From Escherichia coli (GTDB lineage Bacteria > Pseudomonadota > Gammaproteobacteria > Enterobacterales > Enterobacteriaceae): a DNA stretch of 64,000 bases. Shown here piece by piece: positions 19,539 through 28,429 of the stretch (position 1 is the first letter of the stretch; each line of letters starts with the position of its first letter). A model generated the notes under the pieces. The model did no database searches and was not told the origin of the DNA. It saw only the letters and a list, made by a program, of their open reading frames with translations. Location: assembly GCF_029227855.1 (NCBI RefSeq), contig NZ_CP074356.1. One strand, 5' to 3'. The translations under genes and the position numbers were made by a program.

Positions 19539-19615
19539 TGGCGGAACGGACGGGACTCGAACCCGCGACCCCCTGCGTGACAGGCAGGTATTCTAACCGA
19601 CTGAACTACCGCTCC
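19539..19615 (-). tRNA. aspU: tRNA-Asp(GUC), distal tRNA of rrnH
   Basis: 77-nt reverse complement of canonical tRNA-Asp including CCA. Confidence 0.95.
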
Positions 19616-19667
19616 ACCGAATTCTTTTACAACCACCGGTTTTATGACCGGCTTACTGCTAAATTTG

Positions 19668-19787
19668 ATGCCTGGCAGTTCCCTACTCTCGCATGGGGAG
19701 ACCCCACACTACCATCGGCGCTACGGCGTTTCACTTCTGAGTTCGGCATGGGGTCAGGTGGGACCACCGCGCTAAGGCCGCCAGGCA
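19668..19787 (-). rRNA. rrfH: 5S ribosomal RNA
   Basis: 120-nt reverse complement of E. coli 5S rRNA; one difference from the copy I recall. Confidence 0.95.
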
Positions 19788-19878
19788 AATTCTGTTTATC
19801 AGACCGCTTCTGCGTTCTGATTTAATCTGTATCAGGCTGAAAATCTTCTCTCATCCGCCAAAACATCTTCGGCGTTGT

Positions 19879-22783
<2,905 letters not shown>

Positions 22784-22966
22784 TCACAACCCGAAGATGT
22801 TTCTTTCGATTCATCATCGTGTTGCGAAAATTTGAGAGACTCACGAACAACTTTCGTTGTTCAGTGTTTCAATTTTCAGCTTGATCCAGATTTTTAAAGA
22901 GCAAAACTTCGCAGTGAACCTTTGCAGGTACACTCTGAAGTATTTTTTATTTAATCACTACAGAGA

Positions 22967-23042
22967 TGGTGGAGCTATGCGGGATCGAACCGCAGACCTC
23001 CTGCGTGCAAAGCAGGCGCTCTCCCAGCTGAGCTATAGCCCC
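22967..23042 (-). tRNA. alaV: tRNA-Ala(UGC), spacer tRNA
   Basis: Reverse complement of GGGGCTATAGCTCAGCTGGGAGAGCGCCTGCTTTGCACGCAGGAGGTCTGCGGTTCGATCCCGCATAGCTCCACCA. Confidence 0.95.
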
Positions 23043-23084
23043 ATAACATGTAGTTAAAACCTCTTCAAATTTGCGGTGCAAATT

Positions 23085-23161
<77 letters not shown>

Positions 23162-23229
23162 GTAGAGGTTTTACTGCTCATTTTCATCAGACAATCTGTG
23201 TGAGCACTGCAAAGAACGCTTCTTTAAGG

Positions 23230-24771
<1,542 letters not shown>

Positions 24772-24903
24772 AAAAGTTTGATGCTCAAAGAATTAAACTT
24801 CGTAATGAATTACGTGTTCACTCTTGAGACTTGGTATTCATTTTTCGTCTTGCGACGTTAAGAATCCGTATCTTCGAGCGCCCACACAGATTGTCTGATA
24901 AAT

Positions 24904-24916
24904 TGTTAAAGAGCAG
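24904..24916 (-). promoter_or_regulatory. boxA antitermination element in rrn leader
   Basis: Reverse complement reads TGCTCTTTAACAA between P2 and 16S. Confidence 0.7.
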
Positions 24917-24949
24917 TTGCGACGCGGCTTTCAGCTCACTGTCGCGAGG

Positions 24950-24990
24950 TGGCGTATATTACGCTTTCCTCTTTCAGAGTCAACCCTGAA
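24950..24990 (-). promoter_or_regulatory. rrnH P2 promoter
   Basis: Minus strand TTGACT (24978-24983) and TAATAT (24956-24961); matches the rrn P2 sequence TTGACTCTGAAAGAGGAAAGCGTAATATAC. Confidence 0.7.
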
Positions 24991-25059
24991 TTTCAGGATT
25001 TTTCTCTTCAACCGAACCGGCTGTTTGTGTGAAGTGATTCACATCCGCCGTGTCGATGG

Positions 25060-25120
25060 AGGCGCATTATAGGGAGTCGGCTCAGGAAGACAAGCGGAAA
25101 AATGCATTTTTATTTCAACC
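25060..25120 (-). promoter_or_regulatory. rrnH P1 promoter with AT-rich UP element
   Basis: Minus strand -35 CTTGTC (25088-25093), -10 TATAAT (25066-25071), GCGC discriminator; AT-rich 25094-25118; ~110 bp upstream of P2. Confidence 0.65.
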
Positions 25121-25136
25121 GCTCATCTTTTAATCA

Positions 25137-25709
25137 TTACGCCGGTTTTTGCTGCTTTTTTATCGCTTGCGGCAGGTCTGCCAGGCTATTTAACACCCAA
25201 TCTGCCGCGTTTTCTGCTTCAGGTGTAATAAGTTTACCCGTACGCACCAGCACTTTTGTTCCCACGTTCGCCGCAGCCGCTGCCTGCATATCTTCTAATT
25301 TATCGCCCACCATATAAGAAGCGGCCATATCAATATGCAAATAATCGCGTGCCGATAAAAGCATCCCCGGATGTGGTTTGCGGCAGTCGCAGACCTGGCG
25401 AAACTCTTCAACACTACCCTGCGGATGATGCGGGCAATAATAGATACCATCCAGATCGACATCGCGGTCCGCCAGCGACCAGTCCATCCACTCGGTCAGC
25501 GTTTCAAACTGTGCTTCAGTAAATTTACCGCGAGCAATGCCAGACTGGTTGGTTACTACCACCAGCGCAAAGCCCATTTTTTTTAGCTCGCGCATGGCGT
25601 CAATAACACCGTCGATAAATTCAAAGTTGTCGATCTCATGGACATAGCCGTGATCGACATTAATGGTGCCATCACGGTCAAGAAAAATTGCGGGTACGCT
25701 CTTCGCCAC
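25137..25709 (-). CDS. gmhB: D,D-heptose 1,7-bisphosphate phosphatase, 190 aa
   Basis: HAD motif FLDRDGTIN; matches GmhB/YaeD. Confidence 0.9.
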
Positions 25710-25790
25710 CTTTTATAGCTCCTTAATAAGGCATGTGACGCTAGTATCGCATGTTTCGACCAGCAAGAAAGTGCTCTTCGCATAAACCTG

Positions 25791-25822
25791 ATTGATTTAG
25801 ACGTCTGGATGCCTTAACATCC
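25791..25822 (+). promoter_or_regulatory. putative MetJ operator (met boxes) upstream of metN
   Basis: Perfect met box AGACGTCT at 25799-25806 flanked by degenerate tandem 8-mers. Confidence 0.45.
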
Positions 25823-25896
25823 ATTTCATTGACGGCGTTGCCCGTTCCAGGCATTCGAAATGCCACGACTAACTTAATGACGATAATAAATAATCA

Positions 25897-26928
25897 ATGA
25901 TAAAACTTTCGAATATCACCAAAGTGTTCCACCAGGGCACCCGCACCATCCAGGCGTTGAACAACGTCAGCCTGCATGTGCCAGCTGGACAAATTTATGG
26001 CGTTATCGGTGCCTCAGGCGCGGGTAAGAGTACGCTTATACGTTGTGTAAACCTGCTGGAGCGCCCAACCGAGGGTAGCGTGCTGGTCGATGGCCAAGAA
26101 CTGACCACGCTGTCAGAATCCGAGTTGACCAAAGCTCGCCGCCAGATTGGTATGATTTTCCAGCATTTTAACCTGCTCTCTTCGCGTACTGTTTTTGGCA
26201 ACGTGGCTCTGCCGCTGGAGCTGGACAACACACCGAAAGATGAGATCAAACGTCGCGTGACGGAATTGCTGTCATTGGTTGGTCTTGGCGATAAGCATGA
26301 TAGCTACCCGTCGAATCTTTCCGGTGGGCAGAAACAGCGTGTGGCGATTGCCCGTGCGTTAGCCAGCAATCCCAAAGTATTGCTGTGTGATGAGGCCACC
26401 AGCGCGCTGGATCCGGCAACGACACGTTCTATTCTCGAACTGCTGAAAGACATCAACCGCCGTCTGGGTTTGACGATTCTGTTGATCACCCACGAAATGG
26501 ACGTTGTGAAGCGTATTTGTGATTGCGTGGCGGTCATCAGCAATGGCGAACTGATCGAGCAGGACACGGTAAGTGAAGTGTTCTCGCATCCGAAAACGCC
26601 GCTGGCGCAGAAGTTTATTCAGTCGACCTTGCATCTGGATATCCCGGAAGATTACCAGGAACGTCTGCAAGCGGAGCCATTCACTGACTGCGTGCCGATG
26701 TTACGTCTGGAGTTTACCGGTCAATCGGTCGATGCCCCACTGCTTTCTGAAACCGCACGTCGTTTCAACGTCAACAACAACATTATTAGCGCGCAGATGG
26801 ATTACGCCGGTGGCGTTAAGTTCGGCATCATGCTGACTGAAATGCACGGCACACAACAAGATACGCAAGCCGCCATTGCCTGGCTGCAGGAACACCATGT
26901 AAAAGTAGAGGTACTGGGTTATGTCTGA
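25897..26928 (+). CDS. metN: methionine ABC transporter ATP-binding protein, 343 aa
   Basis: Walker [13 protein letters not shown] signature LSGGQKQR, C-terminal regulatory domain. Confidence 0.95.
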
Positions 26929-27574
26929 GCCGATGATGTGGCTGCTGGTTCGTGGCGTATGGGAAACGCTGGCAATGACCTTCGTATCCGGTTTTTTTGG
27001 ATTTGTGATTGGTCTGCCGGTTGGCGTCCTGCTTTATGTCACGCGTCCGGGGCAAATTATTGCTAACGCGAAGCTGTATCGTACCGTTTCTGCGATTGTG
27101 AACATTTTCCGTTCCATCCCGTTCATTATCTTGCTGGTATGGATGATTCCGTTTACCCGCGTTATTGTTGGTACATCGATTGGTTTGCAGGCAGCGATTG
27201 TTCCGTTAACCGTTGGTGCAGCACCGTTTATTGCCCGTATGGTCGAGAACGCTCTGCTGGAGATCCCAACCGGGCTAATTGAAGCTTCCCGCGCAATGGG
27301 TGCCACGCCGATGCAGATCGTCCGTAAAGTGCTGTTACCGGAAGCATTGCCGGGTCTGGTAAATGCTGCGACTATCACCCTGATTACCCTGGTCGGTTAT
27401 TCCGCGATGGGTGGTGCAGTCGGTGCCGGTGGTTTAGGTCAGATTGGCTATCAGTATGGCTACATCGGCTACAACGCGACGGTGATGAATACGGTACTGG
27501 TATTGCTGGTCATTCTGGTTTATTTAATTCAGTTCGCAGGCGACCGCATCGTCCGGGCTGTCACTCGCAAGTAA
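26921..27574 (+). CDS. metI: methionine ABC transporter permease, 217 aa
   Basis: Polytopic membrane protein; 8-nt overlap with metN. Confidence 0.9.
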
Positions 27575-27613
27575 CGTTCAACACAACATAAATAATTGAA
27601 GAAGGAATAAGGT

Positions 27614-28429
27614 ATGGCGTTCAAATTCAAAACCTTTGCGGCAGTGGGAGCCCTGATTGGATCACTAGCACTGGTAGGCTGCGGTCAGGATGAAAAAGAT
27701 CCAAACCACATTAAAGTCGGCGTGATTGTTGGTGCCGAACAGCAGGTTGCAGAAGTCGCGCAGAAAGTTGCGAAAGACAAATATGGCCTGGACGTTGAGC
27801 TGGTAACCTTCAACGACTATGTTCTGCCAAACGAGGCATTGAGCAAAGGCGATATTGACGCCAACGCCTTCCAGCATAAACCGTACCTTGATCAGCAACT
27901 GAAAGATCGTGGCTACAAACTGGTCGCAGTAGGCAACACTTTTGTTTATCCGATTGCTGGTTACTCCAAGAAAATCAAATCACTGGATGAACTGCAGGAT
28001 GGTTCGCAGGTTGCCGTGCCAAACGACCCAACTAACCTTGGCCGTTCTCTGCTGCTGCTGCAAAAAGTGGGCTTGATCAAACTGAAAGATGGTGTTGGCC
28101 TGCTGCCGACCGTTCTTGATGTTGTTGAGAACCCAAAAAATCTGAAAATTGTTGAGCTGGAAGCACCGCAGCTGCCTCGCTCTCTGGACGACGCGCAAAT
28201 CGCGCTGGCAGTTATTAACACCACCTATGCCAGCCAGATTGGCCTGACTCCGGCGAAAGACGGTATCTTTGTCGAAGATAAAGACTCCCCGTATGTTAAC
28301 CTGATCGTGACGCGTGAAGATAACAAAGACGCCGAGAACGTGAAGAAATTCGTCCAGGCTTATCAGTCTGACGAAGTTTACGAAGCAGCAAACAAAGTGT
28401 TTAACGGCGGCGCTGTTAAAGGCTGGTAA
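27614..28429 (+). CDS. metQ: methionine-binding lipoprotein, 271 aa
   Basis: Lipobox LVGC; NlpA-family binding protein. Confidence 0.9.
   Translation: MAFKFKTFAAVGALIGSLALVGCGQDEKDPNHIKVGVIVGAEQQVAEVAQKVAKDKYGLDVELVTFNDYVLPNEALSKGDIDANAFQHKPYLDQQLKDRGYKLVAVGNTFVYPIAGYSKKIKSLDELQDGSQVAVPNDPTNLGRSLLLLQKVGLIKLKDGVGLLPTVLDVVENPKNLKIVELEAPQLPRSLDDAQIALAVINTTYASQIGLTPAKDGIFVEDKDSPYVNLIVTREDNKDAENVKKFVQAYQSDEVYEAANKVFNGGAVKGW

What the first reader, a model, noticed from the sequence alone, without database searches (positions are those of the whole stretch)
25791..25822. Met-box operator in the gmhB/metN divergent region
A perfect AGACGTCT octamer (25799-25806) is flanked by degenerate tandem 8-mers about 75-100 bp upstream of the metN start, consistent with MetJ/SAM repression of the metNIQ transporter.
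Basis: partly seen in the sequence, partly recalled or inferred. Interest (0 to 1): 0.2.

Follow-up and report, generated by a model that had tools for sequence, protein, structure and literature searches.

The report
Known MetJ operator at metN promoter
This is the already-described binding site for the methionine repressor MetJ, sitting on top of the promoter of the E. coli methionine-uptake operon metNIQ; it is real and well conserved, but ordinary and already known.

Summary
The window is E. coli chromosome, with gmhB on the minus strand and metN-metI-metQ on the plus strand. The perfect AGACGTCT is at 25799-25806, as reported.

One octamer alone is at chance level (0.65 expected per 64 kb). 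The array it starts is not. AGACGTCT-GGATGCCT-TAACATCC (25799-25822) scores 20.4 bits with the published met-box matrix. It is the only array in the window that passes the published thresholds. An array this strong appeared in 1 of 500 shuffled windows.

The same 24-mer, 74 nt from the ATG, is listed for b0199 metN in Augustus & Spicer 2011. That paper also reports 20-fold MetJ-dependent repression of a metN-lacZ fusion.

The upstream 8-mer ATTGATTT (25791-25798) is not a met box (-9.9 bits). It holds the -35 hexamer TTGATT.

A published transcription start maps to 25828. The boxes therefore lie at -29 to -6 and cover the spacer and the -10 hexamer TAACAT.

Across 118 Enterobacterales species, 25791-25822 is 94-98% conserved against about 60% in the flanks.

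Verdict: interpretation supported, already known, low interest.

The parts
25799..25806 (.). Met box 1, AGACGTCT, a perfect consensus palindrome (-29 to -22 relative to the metN transcription start)
   Evidence: Scores 12.58 bits. Mean identity 0.983 over 118 species. The only variants are A/G at position 1, A/C at position 3 and one G/A at position 5.
25807..25814 (.). Met box 2, GGATGCCT (-21 to -14), lying in the promoter spacer
   Evidence: Scores 4.22 bits. Mean identity 0.939. Most variation is at positions the matrix tolerates: G/A at position 1 and T/C at position 4. Rarer changes are G/A at position 5 (3 species) and T/C at position 8 (4 species). The non-consensus C at 25812 is invariant in 118 of 118.
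25815..25822 (.). Met box 3, TAACATCC (-13 to -6), overlapping the -10 hexamer
   Evidence: Scores 3.63 bits. Mean identity 0.957. Part of the published 24-mer.
25792..25797 (+). metN promoter -35 hexamer TTGATT (-36 to -31).
   Evidence: TTGA is invariant apart from one A-to-C change at 25795 (117 of 118). The fifth base varies T/C, giving TTGATT or TTGACT. It is 17 nt from the -10 hexamer and correctly placed for the published start. The enclosing 8-mer scores -9.93 bits as a met box.
25815..25820 (+). metN promoter -10 hexamer TAACAT (-13 to -8)
   Evidence: T25815, A25816 and T25820 are invariant in 118 species. The hexamer ends 7 nt before the published start. This assignment is an inference from position and conservation.
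25828..25828 (+). metN transcription start site (A)
   Evidence: Kim et al. 2012, supplementary table: MG1655 start at 222714 on the minus strand, 83 reads, 69-nt 5' UTR, with flanking sequence identical to the window. The orthologous start in Klebsiella pneumoniae has the same operator and a 71-nt UTR.
25828..25896 (+). metN 5' untranslated leader (69 nt)
   Evidence: Runs from the start at 25828 to the ATG at 25897.
25897..28429 (+). The regulated operon: metN (25897-26928), metI (26921-27574), metQ (27614-28429)
   Evidence: ORFs. Identical E. coli genomes annotate metN. K-12 annotation gives metN, metI and metQ.

Best explanation
Positions 25799-25822 are the MetJ operator of the metNIQ (formerly metD) methionine ABC-transporter operon. 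It consists of three contiguous 8-bp met boxes. When S-adenosylmethionine (SAM) is plentiful, MetJ-SAM dimers bind one per box and stabilise each other through contacts between neighbouring dimers. This is established knowledge for the MetJ ribbon-helix-helix repressor. The array spans -29 to -6 of the sigma-70 promoter: -35 TTGATT at 25792-25797, a 17-nt spacer, -10 TAACAT at 25815-25820, and the start at 25828. Bound repressor therefore covers the spacer and the -10 element and keeps RNA polymerase from initiating. Methionine uptake is shut off when the cell has enough methionine and SAM. Shown here or in the papers read: the sequence, its statistical excess, its conservation, the transcription start, and MetJ-dependent repression of the upstream region. 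Inferred: that these exact bases are the ones contacted, and that the mechanism is promoter occlusion.
For: The array scores 20.43 bits and is the only qualifying site in 64 kb. An array this strong appeared in 1 of 500 shuffles. It is the identical 24-mer published for b0199 metN, with a 74-nt gap. The same 24-mer is listed for Salmonella LT2 and Klebsiella, a variant for Yersinia pestis, and other met-box arrays upstream of metN in Haemophilus and Vibrio. The Ec.metN-lacZ repression ratio is 0.05 in wild type versus delta-metJ. The published start at window 25828 places the boxes at -29 to -6. For an independent footprint I retrieved 120 loci with a pattern from the metN N-terminal codons, which is blind to the operator. 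All 118 usable species carry the array at the same place. Of these, 113 pass the thresholds and 5 miss only because box 2 falls just below the per-box cut-off. Mean identity is 0.94-0.98 for 25791-25822 against 0.57-0.60 in both flanks. Substitutions fall mainly at positions the matrix tolerates. The 61 nt around the site match in 5424 of 5426 complete E. coli genomes, at 99% identity or more in 5027.
Against: I could not read any footprint or point-mutant data for these exact bases. The primary papers (Gal 2002, Merlin 2002, Marincs 2006) are not held, and the gel-shift figure is an image. Boxes 2 and 3 are weak (4.2 and 3.6 bits). Box 3 coincides with the -10 hexamer, so part of its conservation is owed to the promoter. 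The promoter hexamers match only 8 of 12 consensus positions, below the scan tool's cut-off.
Confidence: 0.93

Rival explanations
1. The operator has four boxes, as the first reader drew it (25791-25822), with ATTGATTT as a very degenerate fourth box bound through cooperativity.
For: 25791-25798 is as conserved as the true boxes (0.947) and is in 8-bp register with them.
Against: It scores -9.93 bits. It has T at position 3, a base never seen in the 832 half-boxes behind the published matrix. In other species it becomes GTTGACTT, which is even worse as a met box (-16.9 bits) but closer to the -35 consensus TTGACA. The published site has 3 boxes.
Confidence: 0.05
2. The conserved block is only the metN promoter, and its resemblance to met boxes is incidental.
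For: The -35 and -10 hexamers lie within or next to the block, and box 3 overlaps the -10.
Against: Promoter spacers are normally free to vary, yet this 17-nt spacer is 94-98% conserved over 118 species. The array's score occurs in 0.2% of shuffled windows. Variants fall mainly at positions the matrix tolerates. The upstream region is repressed 20-fold in a MetJ-dependent way.
Confidence: 0.02
3. The array is a shared operator that also represses the divergent gene gmhB.
For: The two genes share a 187-bp intergenic region. MetJ operators are shared by divergent pairs elsewhere, such as metJ/metB and metE/metR.
Against: The gmhB start reported by Cappable-seq maps to window 25736 on the minus strand. 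The boxes therefore sit 63-86 bp upstream of it and outside its core promoter. In the stretch of Table S1 I could see, the K-12 rows go from b0199 straight to b0260, with no b0200 row. The same paper shows that sharing a region with a met operator need not give regulation, as with exbB next to metC.
Confidence: 0.04
4. The inverted repeat TGGATG-CCTTAA-CATCCA (25806-25823) followed by TTTCATT is an intrinsic terminator or RNA hairpin.
For: The consensus terminator scan flagged it.
Against: It lies upstream of the metN start at 25828, and no co-directional gene lies upstream, since gmhB is on the other strand. The T-run is interrupted and the stem has only 3 G-C pairs. The dyad is what adjacent palindromic met boxes produce anyway.
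Confidence: 0.01

Closest known systems
MetJ operator of E. coli metNIQ (b0199; formerly abc-yaeE-yaeC, the metD locus)
   Same: It is the same object. The 24-mer agacgtctggatgccttaacatcc, 3 boxes, 20.45 bits and a 74-nt gap to the ATG are as tabulated by Augustus & Spicer 2011. Over 25700-25910 the window differs from K-12 at only 3 positions, none in the operator or promoter.
   Different: Nothing of substance.
Other E. coli MetJ operators (metA, metB/metJ, metC, metE/metR, metF, metK, mmuP)
   Same: All are tandem 8-bp AGACGTCT-like repeats near the start of the gene, bound by MetJ with SAM.
   Different: metN has 3 boxes, and one of them is a perfect consensus. Among the other K-12 operators tabulated, 2-4 boxes are listed for metC, metA, metB and metF, and none of those visible contains a perfect AGACGTCT box. 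The gap to the ATG is 74 nt because the leader is 69 nt long.
metN met-box arrays in Yersinia, Haemophilus and Vibrio
   Same: Same gene, same regulator and same tandem architecture.
   Different: Sequence and box number differ. Yersinia pestis has agccgtctagacgccttaacatcc. H. influenzae has 2 boxes 45 nt from the ATG. V. cholerae has 4 boxes 91 nt from the ATG.

Membership tests
MetJ operator (met-box array) | Two or more contiguous 8-bp repeats related to AGACGTCT, in strict 8-bp register | tested here: met
   Three contiguous boxes at 25799-25822. The neighbouring 8-mers in the same register score from -9.9 to -19.4 bits.
MetJ operator (met-box array) | Passes the published weight-matrix thresholds: each box at least one quarter of the consensus score, and the whole site at least the consensus score | tested here: met
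   Box scores are 12.58, 4.22 and 3.63 bits against a per-box cut-off of 3.15. The total of 20.43 bits exceeds the required 12.58. An array of at least this score appeared in 1 of 500 shuffled windows.
MetJ operator (met-box array) | Sits at or overlaps the promoter of a methionine biosynthesis or transport gene | tested here: met
   The boxes lie at -29 to -6 relative to the published metN start, which maps to window 25828.
MetJ operator (met-box array) | Conserved at orthologous promoters in species that have MetJ, more strongly than the flanking DNA | tested here: met
   In 118 Enterobacterales species the boxes are 0.94-0.98 identical against 0.57-0.60 in the flanks.
MetJ operator (met-box array) | MetJ- and SAM-dependent repression of the downstream gene in vivo | not testable with these tools
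   Published: the Ec.metN upstream region driving lacZ has a repression ratio of 0.05 in wild type versus delta-metJ. A review reports regulation by L-methionine and MetJ.
MetJ operator (met-box array) | Direct MetJ contact with these bases, shown by footprint or point mutants | not testable with these tools
   A gel shift on the 400-bp operator fragment was published, but only as an image. The primary papers are not held.
Sigma-70 promoter (metNp) | -35 and -10 hexamers 16-18 nt apart, with the start 5-9 nt after the -10 | tested here: met
   TTGATT, then 17 nt, then TAACAT, matching 8 of 12 consensus positions. This is below the scan tool's cut-off of 9, so one search did not list it. The published start lies 7 nt after the -10. 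Key bases are invariant or nearly so in 118 species.
Intrinsic terminator | A G+C-rich hairpin followed by a U-run, within a transcribed region at the end of a transcription unit | tested here: not met
   The hairpin at 25806-25823 was flagged. It lies upstream of the start at 25828, no co-directional gene lies upstream, and the T-run is interrupted.

The most novel reading that the evidence does not exclude
The operator itself holds no novelty. The most novel reading my evidence does not exclude concerns the 69-nt metN leader just downstream. It has a hairpin close to the 5' end (25831-25846) with compensatory changes across genera. It has a second hairpin (25850-25864) and a nearly invariant single-stranded motif, CCACGGCUAAC in most species and CCACGACUAAC here (25863-25873). 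It also has an A-rich stretch before the ATG with no Shine-Dalgarno sequence. Together these could form an undescribed post-transcriptional control or mRNA-stability element of the methionine transporter. No Rfam family matches.
Probability: 0.12. Interest if true: 0.35.

Novelty: already known. Interest (0 to 1): 0.06.

Why it matters
The site explains how E. coli and its relatives shut off high-affinity methionine import when SAM is abundant. That has been in the literature since 2002 and in comparative-genomics tables since 2011, so this finding adds no new biology. It does confirm that the first-stage reader can recognise a short operator from raw sequence. It also refines the anatomy. The operator is 25799-25822, the adjoining conserved 8-mer holds the -35 hexamer, and the third box doubles as the -10 hexamer. 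That dual role explains why the whole 32-bp block is nearly frozen across Enterobacterales.

Tried and rejected
(1) Testing the octamer alone for significance failed. 0.65 copies are expected per window, so only the array is informative.

(2) I tried to read the primary papers: Merlin 2002, Gal 2002 and Marincs 2006. None is held. I therefore could not check how the original authors drew the boxes, or whether a footprint exists.

(3) The consensus promoter scan did not report the real promoter, which matches 8 of 12 positions. Instead it reported ATGCCA-16-GATAAT at 25860-25887. That site would give an almost leaderless mRNA, and the one start-site dataset I could read for this strand does not support it. 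Its hexamers are conserved, so a minor second promoter is not excluded.

(4) The Cappable-seq table was cut off when stored and showed only plus-strand entries near this locus. It gave the gmhB start but no second check of the metN start.

(5) The Rfam search of 25650-26000 at E-value up to 1 found nothing.

(6) RNAalifold on 110 leaders gave no consensus structure, because the Serratia and Rahnella group aligns poorly. A structure I drew by hand did show covariation.

(7) The five species first scored as having no array are threshold artefacts. All five keep a consensus box 1, and box 2 scores 1.99-2.83 bits.

Full report
**Context.** The window is Escherichia coli chromosome. A 601-nt stretch around the finding is 100% identical to many complete E. 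coli genomes and is present in 5424 of 5426 of them. Those genomes annotate gmhB and metN at these positions. In the window, gmhB runs 25137-25709 on the minus strand. metN (25897-26928), metI (26921-27574) and metQ (27614-28429) are on the plus strand. A ribosomal RNA operon, which K-12 coordinates identify as rrnH, lies next to gmhB on the minus strand at 19542-24771. Over 25700-25910 the window differs from K-12 MG1655 at three positions (25762, 25847, 25859). None of them is in the operator or the promoter.

**The observation.** AGACGTCT is at 25799-25806, as reported. It is the only exact copy in the window, but 0.65 copies are expected by chance and 49 of 100 shuffles have at least one. 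The octamer alone therefore proves nothing.

I scored the region with the published MetJ information-weight matrix (Augustus & Spicer 2011, Table 3). In 8-bp register the scores are:

| Coordinates | Sequence | Score (bits) |
|---|---|---|
| 25791-25798 | ATTGATTT | -9.93 |
| 25799-25806 | AGACGTCT | 12.58 (consensus) |
| 25807-25814 | GGATGCCT | 4.22 |
| 25815-25822 | TAACATCC | 3.63 |
| 25823-25830 | ATTTCATT | -19.42 |

The published rules require each box to reach a quarter of the consensus score and the whole site to reach the consensus score. Under them, 25799-25822 (3 boxes, 20.43 bits) is the only qualifying site in all 64 kb. In 500 dinucleotide-preserving shuffles, weak two-box arrays were common (0.69 per window). 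Arrays of at least 20.4 bits appeared in 1 of 500 shuffles, and arrays of three or more boxes in 4%. The array is well beyond chance.

**It is the published site.** Table S1 of Augustus & Spicer 2011 lists, for E. coli K-12 b0199 metN, 3 boxes, 20.45 bits, a gap of 74 nt to the start of translation, and the sequence agacgtctggatgccttaacatcc. That is window 25799-25822, and 25823-25896 is 74 nt. The same 24-mer is listed for Salmonella LT2 (gap 75) and Klebsiella pneumoniae (gap 76). Yersinia pestis has the variant agccgtctagacgccttaacatcc. Haemophilus influenzae and Vibrio cholerae have different arrays, of 2 and 4 boxes. In that paper, 400 bp upstream of E. coli metN driving lacZ gave a repression ratio of 0.05 in wild type versus delta-metJ. 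The metNIQ boxes were among the "known metboxes" used to seed the matrix. [quoted passage not shown] 2002.

**Independent conservation footprint.** To avoid selecting on the operator, I scanned genome contigs with a degenerate pattern for the first 11 codons of metN. This gave 120 loci from different Enterobacterales species. Of these, 118 had enough upstream sequence.
- 113 of the 118 carry a qualifying array 72-85 nt from the ATG, and 63 have the identical 24-mer.
- The 5 "failures" all keep a consensus box 1. They miss only because box 2 scores 1.99-2.83 bits, just under the 3.15-bit cut-off.
- In a MAFFT alignment, mean identity to the window is 0.947 (25791-25798), 0.983 (box 1), 0.939 (box 2) and 0.957 (box 3). 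The flanks score 0.597 (25710-25790), 0.573 (25823-25830) and 0.598 (25831-25896).
- Substitutions inside the boxes fall mainly at positions the matrix tolerates: A/G at position 1, C/T at position 4, A/C at position 3.
- Within E. coli, the 61 nt around the site match in 5424 of 5426 complete genomes, at 99% identity or more in 5027.

**The conserved upstream 8-mer and the mechanism.** Kim et al. 2012 (PLoS Genet., supplementary table) report an MG1655 transcription start at 222714 on the minus strand. It has 83 reads, is assigned to b0199 metN, and gives a 69-nt 5' UTR. The flanking sequence is ...CTGATTGATTTAGACGTCTGGATGCCTTAACATCCATTTCA. An orthologous start in K. pneumoniae has the same operator. 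With the mapping window = 248542 minus the K-12 coordinate, the start is A at window 25828.

This gives the following layout:
- The -10 hexamer TAACAT is at 25815-25820 (-13 to -8).
- The -35 hexamer TTGATT is at 25792-25797 (-36 to -31), 17 nt upstream of the -10.
- The three boxes lie at -29 to -6.

Across 118 species the TTGA of the -35 is invariant apart from one A-to-C change at 25795, and the fifth base alternates T/C, giving TTGATT or TTGACT. That moves it toward the -35 consensus and further from a met box. T25815, A25816 and T25820 of the -10 are invariant, and the start position is a purine in 109 of 118.

The likely mechanism follows. It is established that MetJ dimers bind cooperatively, one per box, with SAM as corepressor. 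Three such dimers would cover the spacer and the -10 and exclude RNA polymerase. The position, the conservation and the MetJ-dependent repression are shown. Contact with these exact bases and occlusion as the mechanism are inferred.

**Rivals.** Four alternatives were considered.
- A four-box operator is unlikely. The fourth 8-mer scores -9.9 bits, has T at position 3 (never seen in 832 half-boxes), and varies toward the -35 consensus. Cooperative binding to a very poor box cannot be excluded without a footprint.
- "Promoter only" fails because spacers are not normally conserved, and because of the published MetJ dependence.
- Shared control of gmhB is unlikely. Its Cappable-seq start (K-12 222806, plus strand, score 31.4) maps to window 25736 on the minus strand. 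The boxes are therefore 63-86 bp upstream of it.
- The terminator-like hairpin at 25806-25823 is simply the dyad of boxes 2 and 3. It lies upstream of the start and so is not transcribed.

**Comparison and novelty.** This is the known MetJ operator of metNIQ, not a relative of it. All sequence-level defining features were tested and met. The two experimental features, in vivo MetJ dependence and direct contact, cannot be tested here. The first is published and the second I could not read. Novelty: already known. Interest: very low.

**Seen in passing.** The 69-nt metN leader is more structured and conserved than a plain UTR. Details are in the separate list. Hand-drawn hairpins at 25831-25846 and 25850-25864 are paired in 75% of cells, against 29-38% for slid controls. 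Their covariation score is 0.257, against 0.113 or less for the controls. No Rfam family matches.

Noticed in passing
window 25828-25896 (metN 5' leader): The leader has a hairpin close to its 5' end (25831-25846) with compensatory changes between genera: ACGG/CCGT, CCTTGG/CCAAGG, CGGGG/CCCCG and TCCC/GGGA. It has a second hairpin, GGCAT/ATGCC, at 25850-25864. On 110 species the cells are 75% paired against 29-38% for slid controls, and covariation is 0.257 against 0.113 or less. RNAalifold alone found no consensus, and no Rfam family matches. It may be an mRNA-stabilising 5' hairpin or an undescribed regulatory element.
   Followed up: partly
window 25863-25873 and 25880-25896: A nearly invariant single-stranded motif sits here: CCACGGCTAAC in most species, CCACGACTAAC in this window. 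It is followed by a conserved A-rich stretch, ACGATAATAAATAA, running up to the ATG, with no recognisable Shine-Dalgarno sequence. The same bases form the promoter-like ATGCCA-16-GATAAT reported by the scan. A minor second promoter giving a near-leaderless mRNA is therefore not excluded, although Kim et al. list only the start at 25828.
   Followed up: partly
window 25736-25751, minus strand: This looks like the gmhB promoter. A conserved island (AGTATCGCATGT, 25743-25754, identity mostly 0.9 or above) reads on the minus strand as an extended -10, TGCGATACT. The Cappable-seq start at K-12 222806 (plus strand, score 31.4) maps to window 25736, seven nt downstream. That gives a 27-nt leader before the GTG start codon at 25709, with an AAGGAG ribosome-binding site.
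   Followed up: partly
window 25812: The non-consensus C at position 6 of met box 2 costs 2.95 bits in the matrix, yet it is invariant in 118 of 118 species. Positions 1 and 4 of the same box vary freely. This suggests selection for a deliberately sub-optimal box or for a spacer feature. I have no explanation.
   Followed up: no
window 19542-24771, minus strand: A complete ribosomal RNA operon lies immediately beside gmhB: 16S rRNA at 23230-24771, two tRNAs, 23S rRNA at 19879-22783, 5S rRNA at 19670-19785 and a further tRNA. K-12 coordinates identify it as rrnH. The many short ORFs listed at 23330-25100 are spurious frames within and just upstream of it. Rfam also reports StyR-44 at 22791-22899 in the spacer next to the 23S rRNA.
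   Followed up: partly
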